Assembly: GCA_963575745.1 (NCBI GenBank)
Contig: CAUYUJ010000160.1
Span: 62,001-117,428, forward strand
Length of the DNA stretch: 55,428 nt
Reading direction: 5' to 3'
From: Prorocentrum cordatum
Lineage: Eukaryota
Shown here: positions 27,379-55,428 of the stretch, piece by piece
Layout of the letters: every line of letters starts with the position of its first letter
Position numbering within the stretch: position 1 is the stretch's first letter
Notes under the pieces: model-generated
What the model was told of the DNA's origin: nothing
Seen by the model: only the letters and a program-made list of their open reading frames with translations
Database searches by the model: none
Made by a program: the position numbers and the translations under genes

Positions 27379-27876
27379 GCCTCCTCCTCCTCCTCCTCCT
27401 CCTCTTGTTCCTCCTCCTCCCTCCTCCTCCTCCTCGTCCTCCTCCTCCTCCTCCTCCTCCTCCTCCTCTTCCTCCTCCTCCTCCTCCTCCTCTCCTCCTC
27501 CCCTCCTCCTCCTCCTCCTCCTCCTCCTCCTCCTCCTCCTCCTCCTCCTCCTCCTCCTCCTCCTCCTCCTCCCCCCTCCTCCTCCTCCTCCTCCTCCTCC
27601 TCTCCTCCCTCCCCTCCTCCTCCTCCTCCTCCTCCTCCTCCTCCTCCTCCTCCAACCCCAACCCCAACCCCGCCTCCTGTCAATTCAGGAGAGTCGAGCT
27701 GGGCTGCCCGCCGCCCGCTCTCGGGCTGCCCGCGGCCCTCCCTGCCTCTGCCCCCGACCAGCACGACGGCCCGACCGCACCTCGGGGCCGAGCCGCCGCC
27801 GACCGACACGCGCGAGCGAGGAGGGCCTCCTCCTCCTCCTCCTCCTCCTCCTCCTCCTCCTCTCCTCCTCCTCCTC
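27379..27876. repeat. (CCT)n microsatellite blocks
   Basis: Direct reading. Confidence 0.9.
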
Positions 27877-28525: not shown

Positions 28526-28910
28526 GAGGAGGAGGAGGAGGACGGGGGATGAGAGGAGGAGGAGGAGGAGGAGGAGGAGGAGGAGGAGGAGGAGGAGGAG
28601 GAGGAGGAGGAGGAGGGGAGGGAGGAGGAGAAGGAGGAGGAGGGAGAGGAGGGAGGAGGAGGAGGAGGAGGAGGAGGAGGGAGGAGGAGGAGGAGGAGGG
28701 AGGAGGAGGAGGGAGGAGGAGGAGGAGGAGGAGGAAAAAGGAGGAGGAGGAGGAGGAGGAGGAGGAGAGGAGGAGGAGGAGGAGGAGAGGAGGAGGAGGA
28801 GGGTGGAGGAGGAGGAGGAGGAGGAGGATGACGAGGAGGAGGAGGAGGAGAAGGAGGAGGAGGAAGGAGGAGGAGGGAGGAGGGGGGGAGGAGGGGGGGG
28901 AGGAGGGAGA
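28526..28910. repeat. (GGA)n microsatellite
   Basis: Direct reading. Confidence 0.95.
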
Positions 28911-29189
28911 GGCAGGACTGAGAAGGGATGATGGAAGATGGAGGATGGAAGCTGGAGGACGGAGGGCGGAAGATGGAAGGTGGAAGGTGGAGGACAGGGG
29001 ACGAAAGATGTTTGCGGCTTGGACGTCTCTTCGAGCCATTTTGGAACCTTGTTGGGGCCGTTTTGGAGGCTTTCAGACACCTCTTGGAGCCCTTTTGGTG
29101 GCCTTTTTGAGGCCATCTTGGAGGGCATCCAGCAAGGCTGTGGAGGATGAGGAGGGTGATGAAGGGGAGGGGGCGGGGTGGTGCAGAAC

Positions 29190-29630: not shown

Positions 29631-30117
29631 TTGTTGTTGTGTGGTTGTTGTTGTGGTTGAACTCTCACTACTGAAGGAGAATTGTTGTTGAACCCCCCTC
29701 TGGTGCACATGGTATTTGTTCAATTGAAGTGCCCCTCCCAGTGCTCGCACCTGTTTTTTATCAGGGAACATCTTCCCCCTCAAACTGTGTTGTTGGCCCC
29801 CGGGTGACAACAACAACGGCTCCCGCCTGAGATTTCCTCGCAATTTAGCCAGGACCCCCCGCCGCCTGTGACTTCTCGCATTTTGTTCAGGACTTGCGCT
29901 CTCGCTCGGTACTTCCGTACACTTTATTCAAACATCGCTCTCTCGGCGCTCTGGAGTCGCCCTCTCGCTGGAGACTTACTTGCAATTTTTCTCAAGAATA
30001 GCACCCTTGCGTTGGAATTTCCAGCAATTTACTCAAGCGTCGCGTTCCCGACACTCAGACACCCAGGAGTCGCGCTCACGCTTAGGACTCCCTCACATAT
30101 TACTTAGGAGTCGGGAT

Positions 30118-30800
30118 CTCGCTGCCCTTCGTGGCCCCGTTGCAGCCCTTCGTGTTCCACTCGCTGCCCTTCGTGGCCCCGTTGCAGCCCTTCGTGGCCC
30201 CCTCGCTGCCCTTGGTGGCCCCGTTGCAGCCCTTCGTGGCCCCCTCGCTGCCCTTCGTGGCCCCGTTGCAGCCCTTCGTGGCCCCCTCGCTGCCCTTCGT
30301 GGCCCCGTTGCAGCCCTTCGTGACCCCCTCGCTGCCCTTCGTGGCCCCGTTGCAGCCCTTCGTGGCCCCCTCGCTGCCCTTCGTGTCCCCGTTGCAGCCT
30401 TTTGTGGCCCCCTCGCTGCCCTTCGTGGCCCCGATGCAGCCCTTCGTGGCCCCCTCGCTGCCCCTCTCTGCCCTTCGTGGCCCCGTCGCTGCCCTTCGTG
30501 GCCCCGTGCTTGCCCTTCGCGGCCCAATATACGTATGCCCTTCGTGGCCCCCGCTCGTTCGTGTCCGTCGTGGCCCCATGGTCATGCCCTTCGTGGCCCC
30601 GCTGTCGCCCTTTGTGGCCCCCTCGCTGTCCTACGTGGCCCAGTTGCTACCCTCAGTGGCCCCGTCGTTGCCTTCGATGGCCCCGCATTATCTGCCCTTC
30701 GTGGCCCCCGCTCGTTCGCGCTCTTCGTGGCCCCTAACGCATTCCCTTCGTGTCCCCGCTGTCGCTCTTCGTGGCCTACTTCGTGCCCTTCGTGGCCCTG
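30118..30800. repeat. 42 bp (2 x 21 bp) minisatellite with core gcccttcgtggcccc, decaying rightwards
   Basis: Alternating ctcgctgcccttcgtggcccc / gttgcagcccttcgtggcccc units. Confidence 0.95.
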
Positions 30801-30803
30801 CTG

Positions 30804-30844
<41 letters not shown>

Positions 30845-32669
30845 CTCGCTTTCGCTCGTCGTCGTCGTCGTCGTTGCCGTCGTCGTCGTCGTCGTCGTCG
30901 TCGTCATCGTCGTCGTCGACATCGTCGTCGTCGTCGTGGTCGGTCCCCTGTCCGTTCCTCTTGGGGTCGGGTTGCCGCCGATCAGCGCTGCCGCTGGCCA
31001 GGCCGACGGTCCGCGGCCGCCCCGCCGCTTGCCCGGGCTCGGCCTGCAGGGAAGAAAGGTATACCCCCCAAAAGGGGTACGATCAAAGACGAAGAGGGCG
31101 GGTGTCTAGGGTTTGGGAAATAGGCGTTAACGGACACTCGATCAGATCATATCATATTGTTGTAGTTATTGTTGATGAAGACTGTGTTGTTGTTGGTGGT
31201 GGTGGTGGTGTTTTTGTTCGTGCTGTTGATGATGCTGAAGACGAGGATGATGACGATGAGGTTGATGATGGCGATGCTGATGCCGATGCTGATGCTGATG
31301 GCGATGATGCTGATGACGGTGTCGATGACAATGATGGTGACGATAATGGTGCTGATGATGACGACGATTACGACGATGGCTGACATGGCAGGACAAGAAG
31401 CCGCGCTTAAGCGGCGCATCGGCAATCAGCAACCCCAAACGAAGGTCAAGACACACATGTAACAACGAGAGGCGATAATGTAAGCACGCCGGTGCATAGG
31501 CGCTGCAAATACACCAACGCTGTGCGGCGTATGGCAATACATTCTTACGGGAAGCACGCGGGGTGAGAAGGGGCGAGGGAGAGGGAAGGACAGGGGAGTG
31601 AGGGAGGGAAGGAGCGGGGGGAAGATGGGGTGAGTGCAGCATCTTCACAATGATCGGAACAATTGCGCGACTGCACCGTCCCGCGCAGCAGAAGGCGATG
31701 ATGGTATTGTCATGATGCTTGTGATGACGATGAGGATGACGATGTCGATGGTAATGATGGTGGTGATGATGAGGAGGAGGAGGAGGAGGAAGAGGAGTAA
31801 ATGGATAATAATGATGATGATATAATGATGGTGATGGCGTTGATGACTCGGTGATGCTGACGGTTGTGGTGGTGATGATGATGTTGTTGGTCATGCTGTT
31901 GAATACGATGGCACGGATGCTGGTGGTGGTGGTGGTGATGCCCCAGATGATGGTGATGATGATGCTGATGATGATGATGGTGATGATGATGATGATGAGG
32001 ATGATGAGGATGATGAGGATGATGCTGATGGCAACGACGACGGCGGTGATGGAGTTGGCGATGCCCGACTAGGCGGACGAGGAGGGTGACGACGAGGGCG
32101 AGGACGCGGGGCTCGCCACCCGCTCACTCCCGCGGCGGCACGTGGGCGCTCCCTCTCTGCCGCCGGCGAGGCCGACCCTGGCAGGGCCGCCTCCACCATC
32201 CGATTCGATGCGATGCGGTTATTCGCCGGCTGGGGCCGCGATCCCAGAGATCCAACGTATCGAAAAAAAATCGAGACCGAAGTTTTTCGCTGATTTCGGC
32301 CCCTAGGGGCCTTCGCCGGGCCTCGGGACCGTCCAAAAACGACCCAGGATGAAAAACTGGTCCTGGGGAACGGGTCGAGACTTCCAGGGACCGCGTACTG
32401 AACAAATCACGACATCGGATCTCGCCTCCTCCTCCTCCTCCTCATCCTCCTCCTCCTCCTCCTCCTCTTCCTCCCTCCTCCTCCTCCTCCTCCTCCTCCT
32501 CCTCCTCTGGCCGAACGGGGCGCCACTTCCATGCGATCCAGCTCTGTTCGCCGGCATCGGCCAGGGCCCGCCGGAAGTGGGGCGCGGCGGTGCGGTGCCG
32601 GTGCGCTTCGGGACGAGCCGCCGGCGACGCGGTGCGCCCTCGACGCGGTGCGATTTCGCGGTCCGATCC

Positions 32670-35221: not shown

Positions 35222-35738
35222 GCCTTGCCCCCGCCTCCATGGATTCGGGAGGATGGGCTCGGATGTGGCCAGCCGTCGGGACTTGCCTGGGGGACCGCGC
35301 CTCGGGAAGGCGAGGGACGTCGCCTGCCTGGGCCTCGTTGGGGCCTCGGTCGAGCTCTGGCTCCTGCTGCTCTGCTGCTCCTCCTCCGGGGGGGGGGAGA
35401 GGAAGAAGGGGGAGGAGGAGGAGGAGGGAGGAGGGAGGAGGAGGAGGAGGAGGAGGAGGAGGAGGAGGAGGAGGGGAGGAGGAGGAGGAGGAGAGGAGGG
35501 GAGGAGGAGGAGGAGGAGGAGGAGGAGGAGGAGGAGGAAGACGAAGGTGAAGGGCAAGAGTGGAGGGGGGGACTCAGAGGGAAGGCGAGAAGGTAAGAGA
35601 ATGGGATGGGGGAGGTTGCTGCAGGCATTGTGCGGCGCGCCGGTGGCTGGGCGCGGCGGCGGCCGCGCGAAAAAAGTCCGGGCCCGCGTGTGGCCGCTGG
35701 CGCCGCCGCTGGTCCGCTGCTTTTCCGTGCTCCGGTCC

Positions 35739-39357: not shown

Positions 39358-39771
39358 ATCCGTAGGAATCCATAGGAATCCTTAGGAATCCCTAGAAATC
39401 CTCAGGAAATCCGTAGGTATCCTTAGGAATCCGTAGGCATAGTTAAGCATCCTCAGGAATCCTTAGGATTCCATTGGATCCTAAGGCCGTTGCCACTGCG
39501 ACTGTCATTGCGAATGCGACTGCGACTGCGAGAACAGCAGAATTCTACAACTGGATTCTCACCTGAATCTTAAGGGGAATGCTTCCAGATATGCTTATTC
39601 GAGAGAGCACGATCCACCGCCGCTTGACTGTGGAAAATTGCTGCCCTTTTCCTCCGGAACTCGGGGGTCCCCCCCCCCCAACCCCTCCCCCCCCCCCCCC
39701 ACCCCCCCCCCCTCCCCTTCCCCCAGCACCACCCCACCCCTTCCCCTAACCCCCCCCCCCCCTTCCCCCCC

Positions 39772-40380
39772 TCGAAAACCGGAGGGGGTGGTCACTACCG
39801 GTTCGAACCACTGAGCTGTCCCACTGTTCCCACCACTGTCCCCACTGTCCCTACCACTGTCCCCACTGCACCTCTTTCCCATTGTCCCACCGCCGTCCTC
39901 ACCACCGCCTTCACCACTGTCCCCACCACCACTGTACCCTCCACTGTCCTACAGTTTCCACCACACTCCCACTTTCCCCACACCACTGCCCCCACCACCA
40001 CCGTCCCCACCACTGTCCCACTGTCCCCACTGTTCCCACCATTGTCCTCACCATTGTCCCCACCACTACCGTCCCCACCACTGTCCCACTGTCCCCACCA
40101 CTGTCCCGCTGTCCCCTCACCACTGTCCTCACCACCACTGTCGCCACCACTGTCCGCACCCCCCCTCGGTTTTCGAGGGGGGGGGGAGGGGGTTCGAACT
40201 GGTAGTGACCCCCCCCGGTTTTCGAGCTCAAGGGGGGGGGGTGCGTTCGAACCGGTAATGACCCCCCCCCTTTTCATGATGAACGGGGGGGGGGGAGGGG
40301 TTCGAACCGGTAGTGACCCCCCCGGTTTTCCGGAGGGGGGGGGGAGGGGTTCGAACCGGTAGTGACCCCCCCCCGGTTTT
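39772..40380. repeat. Inverted-repeat-flanked (CCACTGTCC)n array, right arm in four tandem copies
   Basis: gaaaaccgg..ggtcactaccggttcgaacc at 39774-39809 vs ggttcgaaccggtagtgacc..ccggttttc at about 40191, 40244, 40299 and 40348. Confidence 0.75.
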
Positions 40381-40440
40381 CCGCTAGCAGCGGTAGAACA
40401 CGCTCTTTCAAACAATGACAGCAGCTTCACTGATGGAGAG

Positions 40441-40690: not shown

Positions 40691-41696
40691 GCTTCCCATG
40701 ATCAGCATACCAGATATTGTGTGTTGGGAGGGATTCATGATTATGAGGGTGCAACAGTTACGTTGGTTCGCGGTGTTGAAGTCCCAAGAACGGTGTTCTG
40801 GCACGGTTCAAGATCGTCAAGACGCAACAGTCAGGTTGATCCGTGGCGTTGGAATCCTGACAACAATGCTTTGGCATGCTCCAGGGTCTTCAAACGAATG
40901 TCTTCCAACGAAGCAGTTCCCTGTGGAAACGAGCCGCTGTAGAAGCCTATGAAGACGGAGCTTAAAGGGAGGGTTTATTCCAACATCGTTGCTGGCTTTT
41001 GAGTTCTCACTGGTCCTCTTCCTCCTCCTCTTCGGCGGCATGCACTAAAGTCCTCCACGTCAGAAAATTATACTAAATACATAATGGTAGGTCATACTAA
41101 TGGGAACCAACACTGTTGCTCCTCCTCTTATCGGGTCCTCTCACGAGACTTGGGCCCCTCTTTCGATTCCCTTGGGCCCCTTTCTGCTTTCCCCCTTCCC
41201 CTTCCTAACCTCCTCGCATCCTCCTCATCCTCCTCCTCCCCTTTTTATCCTCGCCCCCCTCCTCCCTCATCTATCCCTCTCTCCTCCTTCTGTCCTCCTC
41301 CTCCTCCTCCTCCTCCTCTTCCTCCCCACCTCCTCATGGTCCACATCCTCCTGGTCCTGCTCGCTCGATTCTCCTCCTCCTCCCTTTCCTCCTCATCAAT
41401 CATAATCATCATCTCTACTCCTCCTCCTCCTCATCCTCCTCCGCCTAATTTCTCCTACTACCTGCCCCCCTCTCCTCCTCACCACCCTCCCCATCCCCCT
41501 CCTCCTTCCTACGCCTCCTCCTATTCCCTCCTCGCCCCTGCTCCTCCTCCTCCTCTCCTTCCTCCTCCTCCTCCTCCTCCTCATTTCCTTTACTTATGCC
41601 TCCTCCTCCTCCTCCTCCTCCTCCTCCTCCTCCTCCTCCTCCTCCTCCTCCTCCTCCCCCTCCCCCTCCTGGTTCTCCTCTACCATTGCCACTTTG

Positions 41697-41718
41697 TCTG
41701 AAGCCGTTTTGGCTCAAG
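41697..41718 (+). other. Relict dinoflagellate spliced leader (DinoSL)
   Basis: tctgaagccgttttggctcaag vs DCCGTAGCCATTTTGGCTCAAG: 19/22, with the 3' 12 nt exact. Confidence 0.75.
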
Positions 41719-44586
41719 CGATCGCACGGCTGTCTGTCGGTTTTGGGGGCTCCGATGTCGGCGCCTAGCAGGGCCATCTGTGCTGCCGATGCCGCTGTTC
41801 TCGTGGACGCGGCGGTGCGGGCGGCGCAGAGTGCTGCACAAGATGAAGAGCGACGCGTCTGCTGCTTGCGCCCATGTAGCATGCCAATCTCCAAACAACT
41901 TTCTCGCGTGCTTGCCTGCTTCGTAATGCGACACGCCGTACTTGCCGCTGTGGAATCGCCGGGTTCAGGTAATCGGCACGTTTCCGCCTAGCCTGGCATC
42001 TCTTGCAATCGTTCGCCCGTGACTTGTGCCAATACCGTCGTCACGCGCGTGGGTGGGAGTAAAGCGTCCATGGCTTGTCGTTCAATTCATACGGCCTGGT
42101 GCTCTTCTGCGAGACCTTCTTCGCCCACGTCTTCCGTAAGCATGAGCTGTTGTGCTCCACCAGTTTCGCGTGCTTCTCTCGACCCCGTTGCCTGTGCGTC
42201 GGGCCTTTTTCTATGTGTACCCTCTTTTTGCGGGACCCTGCGAGAGGAGCTGCTCGCACTGGGCCCAGCACACGCCGGTCGGAAGAAGGGGACCGAAACA
42301 TGAAGCAGAAAGGCGCTGGAAGTGCACTGGGCCTTCGCCCGCCCCCTGAAGGGGAAGGAGAAGGAACGCACACTGGATGACTGTGAAGCGGGGAGGCGCC
42401 CCAGGCAGAGTGGGGCCCGGGAGTCCAGCAACGCCTACGTTCAACGACCGACGGGTGCTTGTGGAAGAGCAGGGTGCCTCGGGATCTGGACGTGAGTGCC
42501 CGCGCGCGGTCGCCGCGGCCCTTTGGCGACGGCCTCCACGGCCCTCGGCAGCGGTCTGAGTCAGGACGGGCACAGCACACAGTCCAATAACTCGGCCTCG
42601 GCCACTGGAGCGCGTCGCTGCCACGACCTCTGGGGCCACAGGTTGAACATCTAACCTTAGGGCCTCCTCCTCCTCCTCCTCCTCCTCCTCCTCCTCCTCG
42701 GCCCATGGGAGACTCACGTGCTCCTCTGGGGTGGTGACGCTCCAGATCCCCACCGCCGCCCACGGTGTAGAGGTGCTCTTGACCAACTGGGCCAACTTCT
42801 TCACCTTGTGCACACTGGCCCCCACGAGACCCGGGCCGCTGCCCAGGTAGACGACGGGGAGAATGTTGAGCAGACCTCATTTGAGGTCCCAGTGAGCCAC
42901 CTGTATGTCTTCCAGCTCCATCGCGAGCGTGCCGTGGCCTTTCACGGTCGGGGGGCGAACTCTCGCCCGAAGGTGTGAGACCCGCAGCCAACATGGCCCC
43001 CCCCGTGAACACTTTTAGCCGATCGTCCTGTCCGCCCTGATGCTTTGTACGTGCGTTGTGGGACACGCCCTTGCGGCCGAAGCCTCTGTGCCCGCTCGCT
43101 GGCCATCGCCTTGTGTAAGATGGTGCTCGACCAAGCCCACTATGTCGCATCCGAACGTACGAACGAACGCCAGATCCGTGCGCACGTCGCGTGGGCGCCC
43201 GCACGCGCCCGTTTGGGCGTGGCGGTGGAGGCCGTAGCCTCGATGCGGAAAAAAACATCTGGTGTGTCTGAGGAACATACAATGCGAGATACATGAAAAA
43301 GGTAGGAAAGGAGAGAGGAGGGGGGAGAGATCCCTGGAGTCGGTGTCGGCGCGGAGCTCGGTATGCTTGTGTGTGTGTCTGTGTGGGAGGGTGATGGGGG
43401 AGGGGAGAAGTGAGGGCAAAATCCTTGAGGTCGATGTCGGCGTGATGCTCGTTCACGTGTTGATGTTGTGGGCGGACATGTTGTAGTGAGTGTCGTTCGC
43501 CAGGAAAGTTTGCAAGTTTCCCCTTGTTGCCCGCCGTCGTCTTGATTTCTTGCGGTACAATGACCTCACGCCCTGGGTCGCTAAACTGAATGTGTTCCCT
43601 ACCTCCTTTCTTGACCGTCACCGCTGGCGCTGGCGACGGAACGGATCCCTCCTTCTGGATCTGTCTGGCGCGCTCTGTCGCTGATGCGCCTGATGAAATC
43701 GTATGCTGGTCTTGGGACTGTAGCTTCAGGTCCTGCCGCAAGTTGCCAGGGTGGCACCGCACCTCCGCTCGCGGCCCTTCTCTTTTTAGCCGAGGCCTGC
43801 TGTCTGAGGCTATTGATTTTCTCTGCTGCCCCTTCGCGCTTCGATGCTGTTTCACATGCGGCGTCCAGCGTGTACTTCGCCCGAAGAGCCACCTGCCGAG
43901 CCTGTTGATGGCAGTACTCCTGGGTCGGGTCTGGCAGGCCGAACTCCACTGGACCCAGCTTTGGGAAGTCTTCCTCTGGAGGAGGGGGGTTCTCTGGTGC
44001 TGCGCCTCCTGCTCCTGGCTGCTTCGCACCTGTTGCCGTCGCCCACCTATCAACATCGCGCTATGCCTGTTACTGTGCCCCCCTCGTTGTCGGCCGGCCC
44101 ATCCAGGATGCTCCCCTCTGCCCTTTGCCCTTTGCGTTGCGCTGGAAACGCTTCCGAACTTTCTGCTGGCTGAAGCAGTCGTAAATCTTGAGCTGCAGAC
44201 TCCACGACTTCACATGGTGTCGGCTGTTCGTGCTGGCGGGGGAGCTGGCCGACCAAAGCTGGGCACGCACGTGCCAGTTGCTCGATTTTCTCTGCGTCGC
44301 CCTCCTCCGTGGCCTGCTCGTCCTGGCCCACCAAGATTGCAAGATTGCCACCAGCGCCTGGGACTGCTTGTCGCCTGGTGGGACTGGCGCGTGTGTGTGT
44401 GCGTGTGTGAGTGCGTCTGTATGCCCGACTTGGTGAGCCCACAAACCTGCTCCATGCGAAATCGCACATCTCGCAGATCTTGCAGCTCCTCTGGTGGATG
44501 CGACCCCGATCGGTCCAGCCAGCACCGTCAGGACAATTAGGGTTGCATTCTACACTTCGGAGCACACTGGACTTCTGGGAAAACAA
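41719..44586 (-). mobile_element. Degraded non-LTR element related to the 46.9-53.2 kb element: ORF1 + endonuclease + linker, no RT
   Basis: Collinear peptide matches to the intact copy: EQLARACPAL/DLSERACPQL, RKRFQRNA/RRRLQRNA, DIVGLVEHHL/DLVGLVEHHL, KVKKLAQLVKSTSTPW/KMKQLTQLTASISTPW, VHIEKGPTHRQRGREKHAKL/VHVEKGTKRKQRGREQHAKL, WAQAADASLFILC/WAQAADHTLAILC. Confidence 0.9.
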
Positions 44587-44766
44587 CTACTTGGCCGAAG
44601 AAGAATGCAAATATGAATGCGGGAAAGGATGCGTTTTTTTCCGGGCGGCGTCCTCTGGGAGGCGTAAAGAATGCACGAATAATGCGGCGGCCTACTTTTT
44701 GCATGACAAGACTGCGGCGGGATTATTGTTGCATACTTTGTTGGGCCAGGCCAGCGCGCGAACATG

Positions 44767-46215
44767 ATTCCCAACCATCCTGTGGTGTTGGGTCCTCGTT
44801 TTGAAGAGACAGCGCCCCGCGTTCACTCCTCCTCCCGCTGCCCCCTCCCTCCTGCCATCATCATCATCATCACCACCATCATCATCATCGCCATCATCAC
44901 CCGTCACACGCTTCGCGGCCCCATAGGCATCTCCACCGAAGGCCTCAGTGCCACCGCCCGCATGCGTCAGCCACACCCACTTCGGCACACCCCTCACACG
45001 TTTCGTGGCCCCATATGGGAGCTCCAGCGAAGGCCCCAGTGGCTGCGCTCCCATGCGCCCACCGCACCCATTTCGGCACACCCATCACACGTTTCGTGGC
45101 CCCATAGGGAGCTCCAGCGAAGGCCCCAGTGGCTGCGCTCCCATGCGCCCCACCGACCATTGGAGGAGGACCCTCACACGCTTTCGTGGGCCCATGGCCA
45201 TGGAGGGAGCTCCAGCGAATGTGACACCCCAGTGGTTGCGCCTTCCCACAATGTGCGCCCACCGCACAGAGATTCGGCACACCGCCTCTACAACGCTTCG
45301 TGGCCCCCATAGGGACTTTACAGCGAAGGGCCCAGTGGCTATAGCTTACCCGTTGCGCCCCCACCGCACATGATTTGCACACCCCTCAACGCTTCGTGGC
45401 CCCATAGGGTAGACTCTAGCGAAGGCTCCAGTTGGCTGCCTCCATGCGCCCACCGCACCCATTTCGGCACACCCCTCATACGTTTCGTGGCCCCCTAGGG
45501 TAGTGCTCAGCGAAGGCCCCAGTGGCTGCCGCTATTCCAGCGCCACCTGCACCATTTCGGCACACCATCACACGTTTCGTTTTTTTCTTTGTCCCTTACT
45601 GGAAGAGTTGTAGTGTTCAAAGCGAGAGGCCCCTCTGGCGCTGCGTTCCCATGGCGCCCATCCGCTAGACCCCATTTCGGCACACCACCTCAACGTTTTG
45701 TGGCCCCATGAGGGAGCTCCAGCGAACGGCCTCCAGACGTGTGCGCTCCCATGCGCCCACCGGCACCCAATTTCGGCACACCCATCAACAGCTTTGTGGT
45801 CCATGGGGAGTTCCAGCAGAAGGCTCAGGCCCATGTGGCTGGTCGCTACATTGCGCCACGCACGCATTTTCGACGCACACCCCTGCACACTGTTTCGTGG
45901 CCCCATTATGTGGGAGACGCCAGCGATGGCCCCATGTGGTCTGCGCATACACATGCGCCCACCGAACAGGTTTTCGGGGCACAACCCTCACACGCTTCTG
46001 TGGTCCCCGAGTAGGGCACCCACCCGAATGGCTATACCCAGTGGCTGCGTTCGCATGGCGGCGCCGCACATTTTCCGTGCCCCCCCCAATACAGACCCTC
46101 ACTCGTTTGTGGCCTCGGACGTGCTCACACGCATGGCCCCAGTGCTACCGCCCTCATGCGTCCCGTACGCCCAGGACAGCGTTTCGTGGCACGCCTTTCG
46201 TGGCCCCATAAGGAG
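44767..46215 (-). mobile_element. Non-autonomous element with ~90 bp internal tandem array (cacacgtttcgtggcccc...) and terminal hairpin
   Basis: Array units at about 44906, 44995, 45086, 45175, 45291, 45387, 45477, 45569 and onward, degrading rightwards; hairpin cccaac...gttggg at 44770-44792. Confidence 0.65.
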
Positions 46216-46917
46216 CCCCACCGAAAGCGGCACACACAAAGCGTTATTCACAATTGCATATGGTTGGGTCCTTCGCCAGGATAAATTTTGCTTTGTTGGG
46301 CGCATCCTCTGGGCGTATTTTTGCTCGAGCAAACACGAGACATATAAGATGTAAATACATGTCGCTTTGAGTGCAACAATGATGCCGCTATAATGCGTTG
46401 GAAATTGCGCAAACAAAAGACATGCAACGCAAAGTGCGGTTATATCGATTGGAATGCAGGCGCACTGACAGAATCAGATTGTAGGCGCGCGTGGCCAACC
46501 CCGAGCAAACGGCTGGCCATGTTTTGACTGCAATCCACGCGGAAACTACGCGCGACACGCCACAGGAACAGCGCACGATACGACAACCGCACACGCGAAT
46601 CCACACGGGCACCCCTTCGACTGTCGAGCACAAGCCTCGAGGAAGGGGCGACAATCGGACACCGCACTTCACCAGCCACTCCTGGCAGTGTGTCTCTCCG
46701 CCGGCGCGCTGCTCGGGCCCAAGTGGGCCCCGCGGCTGCGGCCCCCGCTGGGCGGGGTGACGTGGCCACGGGGGGCGCGCGCGCGCGGCCGGGGGGGTGG
46801 AGGGGTGCGCGGGGGTGCTAGAGAGGAGGAGGCGGCGGAGGAGGAGGACGATTACAGGACGGTTACTAACCAGACAGCAAATCCCGCCGATATGCTGCTG
46901 GCGCTTCAGGGGTTATC

Positions 46918-49900
46918 TTAACCCTTGCGGCGCACTTCACGCTTTGGGCGCCTGGGGGCATTGGGGGTGCCATCGGGCCACGCGGCCTTCCCCCTCGAAG
47001 AGGGGACCTCCCAACGCCGAATTTGATTCAAGGCCTCTTGGCCAGCAGGGGTGGGGTGCCCTTTACACAGGCCGACGAGGCCCGCCCCCAGTCTACCTCC
47101 CGTGGGGGTCTTCGAGCCAAGGCACCCACACCTCCAACAAAAAATCGGGCCATACAGAATAGCTGCATTGTGTGACTCATGCACCTCCCTGTCCCCTATA
47201 CTGTAACGAGAGGGGAGGCGCACAGGTAAACCTTGAGACTCTACTCTATGGTACTGGGGTCCTGGGCACTTGCCACCGCGAAGCCAGTCCAAAATAGAAA
47301 ACTTCCCAGGGCCACTCTGGCAGTGGCTACACACCCAGGAGGGGCCAACCTTGGAGACCTGGTGCCCAGAAGACGCTTCAAGAGCCTTCCTTACGCGCCA
47401 GGCAGCGGGCGGCACACGGCAGTCCTTACGCGGGCGGCTCTTGCGCTCGAAATCGGCACTAGCGGACGCCGCGTTGACTATAGCCAGCCTCCTCTGGACC
47501 AACCGCACTTTAAACTCAGCACGGGCTAAATCTCTGACCTCTGGGTCTATTTCAGCTGAAACCTGTTCAACTCCTAGTTGGGCGAATTTGTCGGCAAGGT
47601 CATTGCCTCGGGAGACAGAGGGGGTCTGGACCAGGGAGGCTAGCGAAACTCTATCTAGGTGCGAATTACACTTACTGAGCATCACTCGTCGGCCTTGAGC
47701 TTCGGAGAAGACCCTCTTCCACCAGCCTCTGAGTTCTCCCGAGGTGTCCGAGGAGCCGTGCCAGCCGTCGCACACGATCTGGCTGTCCGTGTAGAGCCAA
47801 ATTGGCCGGGCCGCCAACTCCGCACACGGGACCGTCTGGGCTCCGTCAAGGCCCCCGCAAGCTCCTGGCCGAGGGGTGTCGGGGTCGTCATTTTCCACGC
47901 AGGCAGCGGACTGGGCAAAGTAGACGCCCCAGCCTGCGCGCGCAAGGCGCGCGTCGCTGCTCGAGGCCGAGCCGTCCAGGAAGGCCAGCTTGCACTCGAT
48001 GCGGTCCTCGAAGTTCACCGTGCCCTCGAACGCGACGGTCGGCCCGTCCCAATCGATGTAGTACGGCAGGCAAGGCGTGCCCCACGAAGGCGGAGGCGGT
48101 ACGGAGTTCCACGTGGATGGTAGTAGCCCTCTTAGCCACAACTCCAGGTTGGTCCCGTTAGTAATGTCTCGGACTGCTTCGTCACATAGTTTGGCGCTCT
48201 GACGGATCCAATGGTGGTCCTGACCGCATGTATGAGGGCAGCTCCAGACGCGGTGGGCCATCGTCTCTTTCTGGCCTGTCGCACACCTGGTACAGACCCC
48301 ATCACACTCGTAGCCTTCAGCACGGCAACGATCTTCGGTCCAAATGGTATTGCAAATGACTGCTTCTAGCGCACCAGCTTCACGATGTGACTCTGTACGT
48401 CTCATTCTCTGTAGGGTTCTGCTTGCTGTCGTGAGGTCTGGCGTAGAACTCCAGCCTCCTCCGTGGCGATCTCTGGCCGCCTGCTGCCACAGCTCTTTGA
48501 TGACGTCTGCCGTGATGGTCGCCATGAGTTGGGTGGTGTCTTCATCTCCGAGAGTGCCGTCTGGATGCTGAACGTCTGAAGGTGGCCACCCACCGCTTGC
48601 CTGCATCTTGTGCTGGTGTGGTTGTTGGGCCATCGTCCATTCATTTTCCTGCGCATCCGCCCACGTGTCTGGCTCAGGTAGCTGCCATCCTAGTTCCGAA
48701 AGTCCCTGGGTGAGAGCCGCCATCGGCCCTGTCACCACGTTCCAACGTCCTCTGGGTCGTGCCCGCTGGAGTCGCTGTACTGCAGCATGCCAACCTCCTC
48801 GTAGTTTGTCATGGTATTCTGGCCACCGCTTCCAAAGCTTAATCCATTATGCTACTTGGCGGCGGAGCCCAACAGCTTTTGGGTCCCTCTCGAAGTAGTG
48901 CAGCAACATCACCATGGATGTACTCCTGCCGCCTGTCGTGTACCCAAGCATGTCTGCTGCTTCGGCTCTTGCTCGTCGTACCGCTGTTGGAGACTGGCCC
49001 ACAGCAGGGACGTCGTATGATGACTTAGCACGGACGTTGACTAAATTGAGCGCGGCCAGCTTCCGTCTACGCTTGCCTGCCCCTTTGAAGACCCTGGCTC
49101 GGCGTATTCGTGCTCTGGCCGCTTTGCGTCTCTCCGTAGCCGTCGTGGTGCGCCTCTTGCGTCCCCTCGCCATGTCGATGCCGAGGTCTCGTACGTACGA
49201 TGCTCCTTTGACTGTTGCTCCTAGCTGCCGAACTGCTTGCGAAACTGTTTTTTTTTGTTTTTAATACTTGGGTGGGATGCCATGACTGCCGACTTGTCCG
49301 ACATCTCCAACTTGCTCTCAATGCATCATTTGACCAACTCGACCGCAACAGTTGTCAACTCATGCTTGACCTGCTTGTACGAGCCGTCAGACCTCGCCGT
49401 GGCATCATCCACGTACTGTCTGGGAAGCGCACGGGGCACCTGATTGTGAGCTCGTTCCAAAACTTCGTATAAGAATGCCCTCGCACCATTATTTGCGTTG
49501 TTGCACCCTGGTACGATACTGCTCCCAGGGACTATCGGTGGAGCGAAAGCACCTCCTGCTCTGATCGCTCGCGGAGCGAGGTATACCAGACAATTGAGGT
49601 AGAGCTCCACGGGGGGGAAATCAAGCTTCAACGCGCGATCTATCAAAATCGGGATGCTGGTCGAATCGTAAAACTTCTTGATGTCTAAATAGATAGAGCC
49701 CCACGCATGCGTCCCATCCCAGGCACTGCTTTCGTCCATGGCCACGCTGAAGAGAGCTGCCTGGAGGGCTGACGACTGGGCCACTGCTGCATCCCAAAAT
49801 GCTGCCTTCTTGCTGCTCCACTCTGCCATAGTTGGTTGTCGGATCCGCCCCCAAATTCGTATTGGTAAAGGTATCAAGCCGATCAGCCTCTCGTCTCCTG

Positions 49901-52106
49901 CTTTTAAGTTGGATCCCTTGCGTAGAAGTGCGTGCCAAATGTGTAACCATTGGTGCGGCAATGAAAGGCTTTGCTCACATCTGGTGAGCAAGTCGGCCAA
50001 CTCCTCTTTGGCCTGGGGTGCCAACGCCTTCAGATGCTGCACTTTCCACATGTCCGATCCTTGGCCTGAGGAGTTGGGCGTCGTCCTGAGAGCTGCTTCC
50101 AATTGGTCCAAGGTGATGGGTTCACGCTCAGGAAAGTCTGCTTCAGCCCTTGAGCGCAGCCTCTCCATCTGTGCCTTGGTCTCGTTGTACTCGTCGTGCT
50201 TGGTCCATATTGCTTTCCATTGTCTGGCTCTCGTCTCCACCGCACTTTGTAAGCTGGCAATAACTCCACTGCTGTCGGGGTCGATGCATAGCTCAGGGGG
50301 CGAGAGGGATTCGGGCCGCTTGAGATATCCATGAGCTTCCTTCATGTTGCCTTCCATGGCCTTCCTTGCCCAACGGTGGATGCTCTGTTTCGCTTTCTGC
50401 CAGGCTCGCTTGCCGTGTCGCTCTGCACGCTGCGCCGCTTGAAGTACGGCTTCACTCCACAACTGATGGTCTGCGTCCAGCCCTGTCTTGCGAATAATAT
50501 CCAAGGCCCAAGAGTCTTCTTTCTCATCTTGGCGTGCACAGTTGAGGCTGGACGGTGGCAGTGGTGGGTACTCCAATGATTCTATGTGCGTCAATTGGGA
50601 TCGTACCATTCCTCGCAGTTGCTGCTGTCGAGTAGAGTTCTTTGATACTGCCAACTGCCGTAAGAGAGATCCCATTTCCACCCAGCGGTCATGTCTGGCT
50701 TGTTCTGGTTCCTGCGTGCGTTGCTCTCGCCGCGGGGCTACTGGGACCAGGCGGTACTTCACTGGCCGTCCTCGAACCGTTTTAACTTGGTCTTCTCTGT
50801 TGCATAGGATGGCCAGGGTATGGTCTGCTGCTTGTGCCCATCTAGTGTACTGCTCGCCCAACTGCACGCTGTTCACTTCTGTTAATTGAAAAGCCAAGCT
50901 GTCCACCGTTGTTATGTCTGGGCTGAATACTTCACAATGTTCTGTCTGCCTTCGAATATCTTGCCATACATCGTCCGAGACCGTAGCCAATACCTCTCTG
51001 GAGTACGTCGGTTCAAGGAGCTTGTCGATGTCTGCTCGTTCTTGTTGGAGAGCTTGTTGTTCTTCCGACAAGTCTGTGTCATAGATTATGCCATCCAACT
51101 CTGGCATGTGCTCCGTAAGCTTAGCATGCTGCTCTCGGCCTCGTTGCTTCCTCTTGGTGCCCTTCTCGACATGCACCGTGATGTATGGCACTTTGTGCTG
51201 CTCTGCCCTAACAGGAGACAAGATCTGCAACTTGGCTGGCTTCCTGGCGATACGGATGTGCAATCCGACGCGCGGTCTCCACGGAACCTTCGTTACCGCC
51301 ATGACCCCACCCAAGAAAGGCCTGACTGCTTGTGGGCAGATCACATAATCTAACATGCGGCCTTTGCCACTCGTACACGTCGCATCGATGTTCGGGCAAA
51401 CTGGGGTGACTTTGAGCTTCTTCGCCCACGTGGACTGCATGAACTCCTCTGGGGTAACGTTCCAACCACCCGCTGCCATCCACGGTGTAGAGATACTAGC
51501 CGTCAACTGCGTCAGCTGCTTCATCTTCGCTGCATTGGGCCCTGCCAGGCCTGGTCCACTGTCGAGGTACACCACGAAGAGTGTGATACGTATTCCTCCC
51601 CTCAAATCCCAGTGCACCACCGCAATGTCACTCAACTCCTTCTCAAAGGCGCTGCTCCCCTTGACGGTGGGTAGGTGCACTGCAGTCTGGAGGTGCGAGC
51701 GACGTAACCAACATACTCCCCCATGAGTACCGTTTACTGATCGCCCCGTCTTCCTTGCTGCTGTCCAAGTGTACTGTGAATGCCGGCCGTCTGGTTGAAG
51801 CCGCTGGGCCTCGCTGGCTGCGCTCGTCCTCTGAAGGTGGTGTTCCACTAAGCCCACCAGATCATATTTCGAACCCAATATGAAATCACGAACTGACGCA
51901 TTGTACTGTGAGATATTCGCCACGAATACATGTGAGTACTGCTGGTCATCGTACACAAACGGGTCCTGCTCGTCACTGATGGGGTCCTGGAAAGTGACTC
52001 TGCGCCGAGTGCTAGGAACACGTCTTGGACTCCGTCTTTGCCGCCGCAACCGTTTTGCTCCTCTCACGAATGCGTACTGTGGTCTCCAGGTACCTGTCCA
52101 CCTCAT
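46918..52106 (-). pseudogene. ORF2 polyprotein (~1730 codons) with 2 in-frame stops and 1 frameshift
   Basis: APE: VANIS, LVEHH, VYL, GGWN, LDYV. RT: ERLIGL, LDIKKFYD, GSSIVPGC, YVDD, RDLG. Zn finger CTRC..HRVWSC. RNase H: LDGS, AGWGV, AELAA, YTDS, GNDLADK. TGA at 49326-49328, frameshift in the A-run at about 49247-49262, TAA at 48847-48849; the reading continues in frame past both stops. Start codon uncertain. Confidence 0.9.
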
Positions 52107-53016
52107 CAGGGTTCGTGAAGTCGTACGGCTTGGTCTGTTCTGCGGTTGGCTCCGCTTGGACTTCATCTTTGGCCTGTGTGCCCCCAACTGATGGTTTCCC
52201 TCCATTGCCACGGCGCTTCTTGCATTCTTGAGCTTTGTCTGCGAACTTGCGGAGGTTCTCGGCGGCCTCCTTGCGGGCCTGTGTGGCTCCCTTCGCTGCT
52301 TCCAATGTCTTCTGCGCTGCCAAGGCCGCTTCCTTGGCTGCCTCGTATTCTTTCGTTTCTGCTTCTCCCAAGAATGCCAGTTCTTCACTGCTGAGCTCTG
52401 GAGCAACTGCATCATCAGGGACAGTCGCTGCTGAAGGTGGTTGTCCTCTGTTCGCCTTCTCACGACACAAATCCACTCGTTGCTGAGCTTCTTTCTCTGC
52501 GATTTTGTTGTCCGCCAGCTTCTCCAGGATGTCTTTTTGTTCTTCTGCATTGCGTTGGAGTCGCCTGCGTAGCCTTTCACCCGCCGTCGTGACCATTCGG
52601 AGCGCCTGGGCTGCCATTTCCAACTCCTCGTACGGCTTGGGCGCCGGTGGCGGTACTGGCTCGGGAACTCGTAACTGAGGGCACGCTCGCTCCGACAGAT
52701 CCATCTGCTCTTTGTTGTTGCCGTCCTTGGCCGCTTTGTACTGATCTGCGAGGAGGGCGACCAGAGCCAGGGTCTGTGGATCTGGCGGTGCTGTCTCCGT
52801 CGATAAGCTTGACCAGACGGTTCCACACTTAGCAAACTGGGCCTTGTCAGCGATGCGGTCACAATAAATCCAGCTGCTGCCAACAGGAGAACATGTGCTG
52901 CACACCACAAAAGGCCTCCTCTTCCCGCCCTGGTACTCCTTCTTCGAACGTGAGTGCGATCGGGCTCTGCTAGCCGTTCGACCTCCTTCTTTCCAGGGCG
53001 GGCGCGTTCCTCCCAT
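52012..53016 (-). CDS. Retrotransposon ORF1 protein (Cys-rich N-terminus, long Ala/Glu/Lys helical region)
   Basis: Intact frame (open from 53190, first ATG at 53016); CSTC...WIYCDR...KCG motif; homologous to the remnant at 44050-44586. Confidence 0.8.
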   Translation of the reverse strand: MGGTRPPWKEGGRTASRARSHSRSKKEYQGGKRRPFVVCSTCSPVGSSWIYCDRIADKAQFAKCGTVWSSLSTETAPPDPQTLALVALLADQYKAAKDGNNKEQMDLSERACPQLRVPEPVPPPAPKPYEELEMAAQALRMVTTAGERLRRRLQRNAEEQKDILEKLADNKIAEKEAQQRVDLCREKANRGQPPSAATVPDDAVAPELSSEELAFLGEAETKEYEAAKEAALAAQKTLEAAKGATQARKEAAENLRKFADKAQECKKRRGNGGKPSVGGTQAKDEVQAEPTAEQTKPYDFTNPDEVDRYLETTVRIRERSKTVAAAKTESKTCS

Positions 53017-53203
53017 GTATGTCTCGTAGGTGTCGTCGTTCTGCTGCGACTTCTGCCACACCTTGCAGGTGTGCCCCTCAAGCCGCGAGCGCGCCTCGCC
53101 ACCTGCCGCAGGGCTCTGGGGGCGGACGCGCGGCGCGCGCGCAACAGTGGGCCCGTTGGATTTGCTCCCCTGCAAACCTCTCGGGCCCAAATGCTTGAGC
53201 GGC

Positions 53204-53303
53204 GGAGGAGGAGGATGAGGAGGAGGAGGAGGAAGGGGAGGAGGAGGGGGAGGAGGAGGAGGAGGAGGAGGAGGAGGAGGAGGAGGAGGAGGAGGAGGAG
53301 GAG
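53204..53303. repeat. (GGA)n microsatellite at the element 5' flank
   Basis: Direct reading. Confidence 0.95.
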
Positions 53304-53659
53304 GCGGCTATTTTAGGTTGAGGACTGGGGGGGTGTTATTGTTGGAGTCGCGCAGGCGAGGGGGTGGAGGTGGGCGGGGGGAGGGGGCTGTGTGCATTAG
53401 CGCGCTCGCGCCAGGGTGTGAGTTGTTTGGTTTTGGGGGTGGCACTTTTAGCGCGGGGGGGAGGGGAGGGCCTATAAGGCGGGGGGCTCCTGGGGACAGT
53501 GCCACGGGGGCTCGCGGGCTTCTGCGGCCAGAGGCCCCAGGGAAGCCAGGGCCGGGAGGGGAGGGCTCTGAAGAGCGGGCAGGAGAAATCAACATCCCAG
53601 ACGCTCTTCCGGACGATCGTTCCGGGCGCAACAAAAAAGAAAACAGACATGATCTTGGA

Positions 53660-53935
53660 AAGGATGCAACAAAAAATGCGCGGCCGATGTCGGTCGCCTG
53701 AAAGAAGGCAACAAAAGTACGCGGCAGAATTGGATTTTAAAAGGACTGCAAAAAGAATGCGCGGACGCCTGCAAACATCATGCAACAGAATGCGCGGCCG
53801 AAGTCGGCCGCCTGAAAGAATGCAGAAATACTGCAGAAAGAGTGCTGAAAAGAATGCACAAATAATGCGCGGCCGAAGTCGGCCGCCTGAAAGAATGCAG
53901 AAATACTGCAGAAAGAGTGCTGAAAAGAATGCACG
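53660..53935. repeat. 75 bp tandem repeat (2 near-exact copies plus diverged ones), aagaatgc-rich
   Basis: aatgcgcggccgaagtc at 53789 and 53864; diverged unit at about 53675. Confidence 0.88.
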
Positions 53936-55165
53936 AATCCGCCGGCCCCCTTGTGGGGCCACCAGGCTGTAGGCGGGGCTTTTTGCCGCAGTTGTCTCAT
54001 GCTTTCTCAACCTTTGTTTTGCCAGTTGTTAGTCTTGTGTGGTTTCAGTGTTACATGTTTCTTGCTTCTTGCTGGTTACTGTAACTAGTGATTGATCGCG
54101 TCGAGGGGGGTGGAGGTCCAAACGGTGATTCTTTTAGCTCCCCTTGTGCGTTGTCTGAATTGCTGGGGGGGGCTCGAAATCGACACCCCTCACGCAGATC
54201 CGCGAGGTCAGGGTCCAAAAACACAAGGAATTTGCTACATTTCTGACATTCGGTGCCACCCCTCACGCAGATCCGCGGGGTCAGGGTCCAAAAACACAAG
54301 GGATTTGCCACATTTCTGAAATTCGGCGCCACCCCTTAAGCAGATCCGCGGGGTCAGGGTCCAAAAACACAAAGGATTTGCAACATTTCTGAAATTCGGT
54401 GCCACCCCTCACGCAGATCCGCGGGGTCAGGGTCCAAAAACACAACGGATTTGCCACATTTCTTAAATTCGGTGCCACCCCTCACGCAGATCCGCGGGCG
54501 CAGATCCGCGGAGTCCAAAAACACAAAGGGTTTGCCACATTTCTGAAATTCGGTGCCACCTCTCACGCAGATCCGCGGGGTCAGGGTCCAAAAACACATG
54601 GGATTTGCCACATTTCTGAAATTCGGTGCCACCTCTCACGCAGATCCGCGGGGTCAGGGTCCAAAAACACATGGGATTTGCCACATTTCTGAAATTCGGT
54701 GCCACCCCTCACGCAGATCCGCGGGGTCAGGGTCCAAAAACACAACGGATTTGCCACATTTCTGAAATTCGGTGCCACCCCTCACGCAGATCCGCGGGGT
54801 CAGGGTCCAAAAACACATGGGATTTGCTACATATCTGAAATTTGGTGCCACCCCTCACGCAGATCCGCGGGGTCAGGGTCCAAAAACACAACGGATTTGC
54901 CACATTTCTGAAATTCGGTGCCACCCCTCACGCAGATCCGCGGGGTCAGGGTCCAAAAACACAAGGGATTTGCCACATTTCTGAAATTCGGTGCCACCCC
55001 TCACGCAGATCCGCGGGGTCAGGGTCCAAAAACACAGGGGATTTGCCACATTTCTGTAATTCGGTGCCACCCCTCACGCAGATCCGCGGGGTCAGGGTGT
55101 TAATAAACGCATGTGGGTATGTGTGCTCACATTTCTGAAATTCGGTGCCACCCCTCACGCACATC
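53936..55165 (-). mobile_element. Non-autonomous element, copy D, carrying the 73 bp array
   Basis: Minus-strand GTGAGGGGTGTCG at 54181-54193; terminal ggcccc-acaag-ggggcc-ggcggatt ending at 53936. Confidence 0.55.
54184..55161. repeat. 73 bp satellite, ~13 highly similar copies
   Basis: Unit gccacccctcacgcagatccgcggggtcagggtccaaaaacacaacggatttgccacatttctgaaattcggt; ORF starts are offset by exactly 73. Confidence 0.98.
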
Positions 55166-55428
55166 CATCGCAAGGCGTGGTAACCCAAACTGCGAGTACT
55201 CCCTCGGCCCTATAATCCCAAGGTGTGGTAACCAAGCTCGTAAACCATACACGTCTTACCAATCGCCCTGTGTGGTAACCCCTCTTGTGATCAGTTGGTT
55301 TTGCCGATTGCGAATCGGCCTCGCATGAAGTTCCGATACTGCTGCACGACAGCGCCAAAGCCTCATGACTTAGCTCTTCCATGGCCCATTCTCCGAGAGA
55401 GGGGGCCGGCGGCAGGGGGCAAAGCCCT

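What the first reader, a model, noticed from the sequence alone, without database searches (positions are those of the whole stretch)
41684..41760. Spliced-leader relic joined antisense to a retrotransposon, at an AG acceptor-like position
Seen: a 19/22 DinoSL match lies on the + strand, antisense to the degraded LINE, where that copy stops. Codon alignment (CDR vs HDR) puts the SL terminal AG over the AG at 50684-50685 of the intact relative, which follows the pyrimidine-rich cccatttccacccAG. Upstream of the relic, ccattgccac matches ccatttccac (9/10), so the SL may be a clean 22-nt insertion. Established: dinoflagellate mRNAs are SL trans-spliced at AG acceptors, and relict SLs mark retroposed cDNAs. 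Inference: an antisense LINE transcript was SL-capped, reverse-transcribed and reintegrated, or recombined into its parent locus. That would explain a copy that keeps ORF1/endonuclease but lacks RT and the 3' end, the opposite of normal 5' truncation. Such copies could be heritable sources of antisense RNA against the family.
Basis: partly seen in the sequence, partly recalled or inferred. Interest (0 to 1): 0.8.

Follow-up and report, generated by a model that had tools for sequence, protein, structure and literature searches.

The report
Recycled spliced-leader relic abutting antisense LINE
A genuine double relic of the dinoflagellate spliced leader sits where the front half of a decayed LINE retrotransposon stops, on the opposite strand, which suggests but does not prove that an antisense LINE transcript was trans-spliced, copied back into DNA and reintegrated.

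Summary
The 19/22 DinoSL match at 41697-41718 (+) is real. It is also only part of a larger feature. The 15 bases upstream are spliced leader (SL) sequence too. Bases 41682-41718 read as a full SL (17/22) followed directly by an SL cut after base 7 (14/15), 31/37 in all. Chance expectation is 2e-8 per window. This is the published signature of a transcript that was trans-spliced and reintegrated twice.

To its right, on the minus strand, lies the decayed 5' half of an endonuclease-type LINE (copy A). It has stops and frame changes and no reverse transcriptase anywhere in the window. Homology is recognisable down to about 41807, 88 bases from the relic.

- Copy B is only about 43% identical in protein, and the DNA does not align near the junction.
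- The "AG over AG" alignment therefore has no discriminating power.
- The 9/10 flank match is itself SL sequence, so there is no "clean 22-nt insertion".

No poly(A), target-site duplication (TSD), second copy or RNA data could be obtained.

Best reading (about 0.5): DNA copied from an SL-capped RNA antisense to the LINE. Main rival (about 0.3): the 5' end of an unrelated retrogene joined to a broken LINE.

The parts
41682..41703 (+). Relict DinoSL no. 1, full length (22 nt), 17/22 to the canonical leader. This is the younger, 5' copy.
   Evidence: Its first 15 bases match SL bases 1-15 at 12/15 (P 3e-5 at a fixed register).
41704..41718 (+). Relict DinoSL no. 2, cut after SL base 7 (15 nt, bases 8-22), 14/15. 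This is the older relic, directly downstream of no. 1.
   Evidence: The architecture is as described in passages of PMC3229502, PMC7245778 and PMC12014239.
41697..41718 (+). It is an overlapping parse of the last 7 bases of relic 1 plus relic 2.
41209..41670 (+). (CCT)n microsatellite, pyrimidine only, lying 11 bases upstream of the relic. The same repeat type is common throughout the window.
41719..41806 (.). 88 bases between the relic and the last recognisable LINE motif. They fall in the family's variable spacer and cannot be assigned to LINE or non-LINE.
41807..43185 (-). LINE copy A, endonuclease domain and linker. It is colinear with copy B residues about 474-850 and has 2 in-frame stops, at least 3 frame changes and a (CCT)12 insertion.
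   Evidence: endonuclease profile E 7e-23.
43186..44212 (-). Probable N-terminal/5' region of copy A. The minus frame is open from 44212 down to 42043 (722 codons). It contains the A7 run at 43249-43255 (+).
   Evidence: (0 of 500 shuffles reach 722 codons).
44666..44686 (+). 21-nt motif shared 20/21 with the region upstream of copy B (53849-53869). It marks the LINE family's 5' untranslated region.
   Evidence: E 5e-5; the motif is found only at these two places; 5 matches against 0.1 expected.
44898..45580 (+). 91-bp tandem array upstream of copy A's 5' end. Copy B has a 73-bp array at the matching place (54184-55166).
   Evidence: The two consensus units share only a 10-mer (4 of 300 shuffles).
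46921..53312 (-). LINE copy B (endonuclease, reverse transcriptase with YVDD, C-terminal part).
50684..50685 (+). The alignment is not supported.

Best explanation
Bases 41682-41718 are a genuine tandem relict of the dinoflagellate spliced leader. They mark the 5' end of a DNA copy of a plus-strand RNA that was trans-spliced, reverse-transcribed and reintegrated, then transcribed again. The second time it was trans-spliced at the AG inside the first relic and reintegrated once more. The body of that RNA runs antisense through the 5' half of a LINE: linker, endonuclease, and probably the N-terminal region and 5' UTR.

The antisense RNA needs no promoter of its own. Read-through of a LINE that lies backwards in a transcribed gene array, plus a cryptic AG acceptor in the linker, would be enough.

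The copy reached its present place in one of two ways, which I cannot separate and rate about equally:
(a) ordinary retroposition in trans by a LINE reverse transcriptase; or
(b) use of the cDNA to patch or convert the parental LINE locus, with homology on the LINE side and end-joining on the SL side.

Shown: the tandem SL relic, its orientation, and the LINE content and truncation. Inferred: that the 88 bases next to the relic are LINE sequence, that the RNA was antisense LINE RNA, the acceptor site, and the route of integration.
For: - The tandem relic matches at 31/37, with a chance expectation of 2.1e-8 per window and 1.5e-3 per 4 Gb.
- Its layout, a full SL directly followed by an SL cut after base 7, is the published signature of recycled cDNAs (passages read).
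- LINE homology on the opposite strand is colinear from 43167 to about 41807.
- The LINE reading frame stays open from the WAQAAD block to the relic.
- No reverse transcriptase or 3' LINE part exists anywhere else in the window. The LINE therefore ends within 88 bases of the relic, at a sharp change to microsatellite.
- A LINE that keeps its 5' end is the reverse of the 5' truncation expected from target-primed insertion (recalled knowledge). It is what a copy of an antisense RNA would look like.
- No protein-coding signal was found on the plus strand downstream of the relic. Pfam gave no hit above threshold on 8 plus-strand frames.
- The best named homologue is from the dinoflagellate Prorocentrum cordatum.
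Against: - No poly(A) remnant or target-site duplication bounds the unit. The only A run (A7, 43249) is probably internal, because LINE-family 5' features continue to its right.
- The 88 bases next to the relic cannot be shown to be LINE.
- There is only one locus. No parent, no second copy and no RNA evidence is available.
- The younger relic carries more mismatches (5/22) than the older one (1/15). This is the reverse of the published trend, although the numbers are small.
- Copy A's 5' end lies head-to-tail against the 3' end of copy B. That looks like native LINE context and fits route (b) or a rearrangement better than a free retrocopy.
Confidence: 0.5

Rival explanations
1. Chance juxtaposition. 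The tandem relic plus up to 88 bases is the 5' end of an ordinary recycled retrogene. A deletion, end-joining event or nested LINE insertion followed by a deletion brought it next to a broken LINE. On this reading no antisense LINE RNA ever existed.
For: - The 88 bases 41719-41806 cannot be assigned to the LINE.
- No poly(A) or target-site duplication was found.
- Copy A sits in what looks like native LINE context, head-to-tail with copy B.
- SL relics and LINE fragments are both abundant in dinoflagellate genomes (about 9,800 relics in one 1-Gb-scale genome, passage). Some adjacent pairs are therefore expected genome-wide, and a reader would flag any of them.
Against: - It needs a breakpoint within 88 bases of an SL relic and in the antisense orientation.
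- No retrogene body is visible: no plus-strand coding signal was found up to 45.3 kb.
- The LINE frame remains open right up to the relic.
Confidence: 0.3
2. Chance resemblance. The SL-like bases are ancestral LINE coding or spacer sequence that happens to look like the leader.
For: - Copy B has a faintly similar stretch (CCCATTTCCACCCAG) near the roughly corresponding place.
- A lone 19/22 match is expected about 12 times per Gb.
Against: - The full 37-base tandem pattern matches at 31/37, expected 2e-8 per window and 1.5e-3 per 4 Gb.
- The LINE does not continue to the left of it.
Confidence: 0.03
3. A fragment of an SL RNA gene, possibly hit by a LINE that targets SL genes, as SLACS, CZAR and NeSL do in other phyla (recalled knowledge).
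For: An SL exon sequence lies next to a LINE.
Against: - The exon is followed by CG, not by a GT donor and intron.
- The 22+15 layout is specific to processed mRNAs.
- The LINE end at the relic is an internal point, not a terminus of the element.
- Rfam gave no hit.
Confidence: 0.03

Closest known systems
Recycled cDNAs / relict-DinoSL retrogenes of dinoflagellates (Slamovits and Keeling 2008, known to me only through passages in PMC3229502, PMC6050394, PMC5585692, PMC7245778 and PMC12014239)
   Same: A full leader is directly followed by a 15-nt relic cut after base 7. It sits at the 5' end of a DNA copy of a trans-spliced RNA and implies more than one round of reintegration.
   Different: The body is not a host protein-coding mRNA but the antisense strand of a LINE's 5' half. 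No poly(A), parent gene or downstream reading frame was found.
Processed pseudogenes and chimeric retrocopies made in trans by LINE reverse transcriptase; L1 antisense-promoter transcripts (recalled knowledge)
   Same: A non-LINE-sense RNA is copied into DNA. Antisense transcription of a LINE produces capped, processed RNAs.
   Different: The 5' end here comes from SL trans-splicing at an internal acceptor, not from an antisense promoter in the 5' UTR. The antisense RNA covers the endonuclease and linker rather than running outward from the 5' UTR.
cDNA capture or cDNA-templated repair at chromosome breaks (yeast studies, recalled knowledge)
   Same: It would explain a LINE locus that keeps its native 5' context while its 3' side is replaced at a junction carrying the cDNA's 5' end.
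   Different: It has not been shown in dinoflagellates, and no break or repair signature can be read here.
SL-gene-specific LINEs (SLACS, CZAR, CRE, NeSL; recalled knowledge)
   Same: A LINE lies next to spliced-leader sequence.
   Different: In those cases the LINE's termini interrupt an SL RNA gene in a fixed way. Here a processed tandem relic abuts an internal LINE position in the opposite orientation.

Membership tests
Relict DinoSL of a recycled (retroposed) trans-spliced transcript | Sequence match to the 22-nt DinoSL | tested here: met
   17/22 at 41682-41703 and 19/22 at 41697-41718. The leader sequence was checked against passages.
Relict DinoSL of a recycled (retroposed) trans-spliced transcript | Tandem layout: a full leader directly followed by a relic cut after base 7 (at the internal AG) | tested here: met
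   31/37 over 41682-41718, expected 2e-8 per window. The definition comes from the passage.
Relict DinoSL of a recycled (retroposed) trans-spliced transcript | Poly(A) remnant at the 3' end of the copy | tested here: inconclusive
   The only candidate is A7 at 43249. It is 1 of 2 runs of A>=7 on the plus strand of the window. LINE-family features continue beyond it. No A-rich 14-mer lies in 41719-50000.
Relict DinoSL of a recycled (retroposed) trans-spliced transcript | Target-site duplication | tested here: not met
   Words of 8-12 nt from the left flank do not recur next to any A run. Only a shared CTGGT 5-mer was seen by eye.
Relict DinoSL of a recycled (retroposed) trans-spliced transcript | A parent locus without the leader | not testable with these tools
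   No genome is held. No runs were listed. The metagenome pattern scan found nothing.
Relict DinoSL of a recycled (retroposed) trans-spliced transcript | The host is a dinoflagellate | tested here: inconclusive
   The best named homologue of the LINE is from Prorocentrum cordatum. The tandem relic itself points the same way. No marker gene is present in the window.
Endonuclease-type (APE) non-LTR retrotransposon (LINE) | Endonuclease domain | tested here: met
   Copy A matches the family endonuclease profile at positions 11-220 (E 7e-23 and 1e-5). Relative P0007 carries Exo_endo_phos, RVT_1 and RNase_H above Pfam cut-offs.
Endonuclease-type (APE) non-LTR retrotransposon (LINE) | Reverse transcriptase and a 3' end | tested here: not met
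   This holds for copy A: no family hits left of 41818 or elsewhere in the window. Copy B has both. Copy A is a fragment, not a complete element.
SL RNA gene, or a LINE inserted in one | GT donor and intron after the exon; LINE terminus at the SL | tested here: not met
   CG follows the exon. Rfam gave no hit. The LINE point at the junction is internal.

The most novel reading that the evidence does not exclude
The locus belongs to a self-renewing family of non-autonomous retrocopies founded by an SL-capped antisense LINE transcript. The 460-base pyrimidine tract followed by relic AGs acts as a built-in trans-splice acceptor. Any read-through transcription then yields capped antisense RNA against the LINE's endonuclease region. 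That RNA feeds silencing and is repeatedly copied back into the genome.
Probability: 0.07. Interest if true: 0.8.

Novelty: new variant of a known kind. Interest (0 to 1): 0.42.

Why it matters
Relict leaders are the standard tag for retroposed genes in dinoflagellates, but they have been described for host mRNAs. A twice-recycled leader on an RNA antisense to a LINE would have three implications:
- Antisense transposon transcripts enter the normal trans-splicing and reintegration cycle.
- They are expressed persistently enough to be recycled.
- 3'-truncated LINE copies can arise by this route.

It would also give a concrete sequence tag, SL plus antisense LINE, with which to look for transposon control in genomes where silencing pathways are poorly known.

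As it stands this is one locus without expression data. My four full-text searches turned up no description of such copies. This is no proof that none exists.

Tried and rejected
Searches and look-ups that gave nothing:
- Whole genome: none is held.
- Public sequencing runs for 41660-44200: none was listed, and no RNA holder was listed.
- Cluster names for 10 relatives: the database was switched off.
- Exact 22-base pattern right of the relic in metagenome contigs: 0 matches.
- Related LINE loci from metagenomes: 13 loci, 53,654 bases. None of the 13 has a DinoSL, at up to 4 mismatches for the 22-mer or up to 2 for the 15-mer. This set is too small and of unknown hosts, so recurrence remains untested.
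- Closer relatives of copy A: the endonuclease read through with X at its 2 stops gave none at E <= 0.001. The 722-codon frame gave none at E <= 0.01. Among 152 family proteins, copy B remains the closest.
- Earlier findings of this scan: nothing by place, words or sequence.

Ideas considered and dropped:
- A retrocopy bounded by SL and A7 (41682-43255). It was attractive because A>=7 runs are rare (2 in the window) and no copy B 5' similarity was found at first. It is probably wrong because of the open frame, the shared 21-nt motif and the colinear tandem arrays to the right.
- Twin priming, or U6-type template switching on a sense LINE RNA (recalled mechanisms). These would put the leader in sense orientation at the LINE 5' end, not antisense at an internal point.
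- A plus-strand protein gene downstream of the relic. There is no family hit above threshold.
- A 9-mer GCCGTAGCC at 43231-43239 equals SL bases 1-9, but only 4 of the next 13 bases match by eye. I took it as chance.
Full report
**The observation.** The canonical leader DCCGTAGCCATTTTGGCTCAAG is quoted in passages of PMC5585692, PMC8045281 and PMC7245778. It matches the window once with up to 3 mismatches, at 41697-41718 on the plus strand, and 0 of 100 dinucleotide shuffles gave a match. The last 12 bases are exact. From base composition I expect 6.7e-4 such matches per window and about 12 per Gb. A lone 19/22 match is therefore unusual for one window but not for a multi-gigabase genome.

Relaxing the search shows a second, overlapping match at 41682-41703 (17/22) and a 15-mer at 41704-41718 that equals leader bases 8-22 with one change. 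Read together, 41682-41718 is a full leader followed directly by a leader cut after base 7. The match is 31 of 37, with mismatches at pattern positions 4, 6, 11, 16, 19 and 25. This is expected 2.1e-8 times per window and 1.5e-3 times per 4 Gb.

This layout is the published one for recycled cDNAs. [quoted passage not shown] The sequence is therefore real leader-derived DNA. It records at least two rounds of trans-splicing and reintegration. A local 15-base slippage duplication would look similar and cannot be excluded.

It is not an SL RNA gene. CG rather than a GT donor follows the exon, and Rfam finds nothing in the window or in 41400-42100.

**The LINE.** Copy B is the 1328-codon frame 49329-53312 on the minus strand. 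It continues in two further frames down to 46921, so it has at least one frame change and one in-frame stop. It has a weak RVT_1 match and a YVDD motif. In the representative library 2663 proteins match it at E <= 0.001. Relative P0007 carries Exo_endo_phos, RVT_1 and RNase_H above the Pfam cut-offs. The best named hit is an unnamed protein of Prorocentrum cordatum.

Copy A lies on the minus strand to the right of the relic. Copy B residues align to it as follows:
- 477-660 to 43167-42568 (43% identity, E 1e-32);
- 649-696 to 42602-42459;
- 697-735 to 42271-42152;
- 722-817 to 42170-41904;
- 818-838 to 41895-41833.

These pieces lie in three different frames and contain stops. A family endonuclease profile matches from 43167 (E 7e-23). 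Fragment P0140 and a linker profile carry the homology through the WAQAAD block to 41836-41818. A TLRRP/TVRGRP resemblance, seen by eye, takes it to about 41807. Family proteins hit nothing else in the window, so copy A has no reverse transcriptase or 3' part.

At the DNA level the two copies align only at 42721-43140 against 51444-51857, at 65% identity. Copy B is a distant relative, not a near-identical intact copy.

**Does copy A keep its 5' end?** At first I thought the unit might end at the A7 run at 43249-43255. This is one of only two A>=7 runs on the plus strand of the window, and it lies about 65 bases beyond the last endonuclease homology. No significant similarity to copy B's 5' region was found. 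Three things speak against this reading:
- The minus frame is free of stops from 44212 to 43168, upstream of the endonuclease, and stays open on to 42043. That is 722 codons in all, and 0 of 500 dinucleotide shuffles reach it (mean 228). The other two minus frames carry about 15 and 13 stops in the same span. Copy B likewise has 467 open codons before its endonuclease.
- A 21-base motif at 44666-44686 matches 53849-53869, upstream of copy B, at 20/21 (E 5e-5). The 15-base core occurs only at these two places (5 matches against 0.1 expected).
- Both copies are followed on the right by tandem arrays in colinear order: 91-bp units from 44898 and 73-bp units from 54184. The unit consensuses share only a 10-mer, which 4 of 300 shuffles reach.

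No other A-rich stretch and no target-site duplication were found.

On the diagonal that puts the leader's AG over 50684-50685, identity between 41720-41839 and copy B is 32/120. That is random. This part of the family is a spacer of variable length (alignment A1). Other weak alignments are possible: an HRW/DRW match 57 bases away, or a shift of 7 residues after TLRRP. These move the junction by 21-57 bases and again fall on AGs. On the plus strand of copy B, 4.5-4.8% of positions end an AG and 1.2-1.5% end an AG preceded by at least 8 of 12 pyrimidines. The test therefore has no power once a few bases of slack are allowed.

The 9/10 match of CCATTGCCAC to CCATTTCCAC is reached by 50 of 1000 shuffles. 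It is better explained as leader bases 2-11 of relic 1. The 'clean 22-nt insertion' idea falls, and nothing to the left of the relic resembles a LINE.

**What it most likely is.** A true leader relic means that a trans-spliced plus-strand RNA was copied into DNA with its 5' end at 41682. If the 88 unassignable bases (41719-41806) are LINE spacer, the RNA body was antisense to the LINE. The LINE frame does stay open through them, but with an odds value of only about 0.4 by chance. A copy of such an RNA, or a repair of the LINE locus templated by its cDNA, explains why the LINE keeps its 5' half and stops at the leader.

The tandem relic adds that the source was itself an earlier copy that was transcribed again. 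I put this at about 0.5 and cannot choose between retroposition and patching in situ. The head-to-tail contact of copy A's array with the A-rich 3' end of copy B favours native LINE context and therefore the second route.

The main rival, at about 0.3, is that the relics and the 88 bases are the 5' end of an unrelated recycled gene brought next to a broken LINE by rearrangement. With thousands of relics per genome and abundant LINE fragments, some such adjacent pairs must exist by chance, and a reader would flag them. Chance resemblance and an SL RNA gene are each at about 0.03.

**What is known.** Relict leaders upstream of host retrogenes are well described. I ran four full-text searches combining dinoflagellate or DinoSL terms with retroposition, retrotransposon, LINE, antisense and transposable element. 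I read only passages of six papers, no supplements, and Slamovits and Keeling 2008 not at all. I found no description of a leader relic on an antisense transposon transcript. 'Antisense' occurs 0 times in PMC5585692 and PMC12014239.

**Verdict.** This is a new variant of a known kind, resting on one locus. The relic is real and richer than reported. The antisense-LINE reading is plausible but unproven. The AG-site and clean-insertion arguments do not hold. Any role as a source of antisense RNA is untested.

Noticed in passing
42043-44212, minus strand: A 722-codon frame without a stop. No dinucleotide shuffle reaches it (0 of 500, mean 228), while the two other minus frames carry about 15 and 13 stops. 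Across the endonuclease region it is not the frame that carries the endonuclease homology. It has no Pfam hit and no homologue. Why it stays open is unexplained.
   Followed up: partly
44898-46240 and 54184-55166: Both LINE copies have a tandem array just upstream of their 5' ends, with 91-bp units and 73-bp units (13 copies, 92% alike). A shared AAAGAATGCACRAAT motif lies between the array and the coding frame. This resembles the monomer promoters of mouse L1 (recalled knowledge).
   Followed up: partly
46240-46330: The A-rich 3' end of LINE copy B (minus strand) lies within about 40-80 bases of the end of copy A's tandem array. The two elements therefore sit head-to-tail.
   Followed up: no
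43231-43239, plus strand: GCCGTAGCC equals leader bases 1-9 and lies 10 bases before the A7 run. Only 4 of the next 13 bases match. It is probably chance.
   Followed up: partly
whole window, e.g. 1-330, 27380-27680, 28526-29000, 35390-35615, 41209-41670, 53204-53304: (CCT)n/(GGA)n microsatellites in both orientations are very frequent. So are long stop-free frames in low-complexity DNA, for example three open minus frames at 37.4-39.4 kb.
   Followed up: no
39669-40381: A run of about 100 C's, then 12-20-bp CCACTGTCCCCA-type repeats, then 49-53-bp units containing GGTTCGAACCGGTAGTGA flanked by G and C runs. Their nature is unknown.
   Followed up: no
29872-31380, plus strand: A 503-codon frame with a sub-threshold Pfam match to MINT_RAM7 (52 bits against a cut-off of 108). 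It is probably a low-complexity artefact.
   Followed up: no
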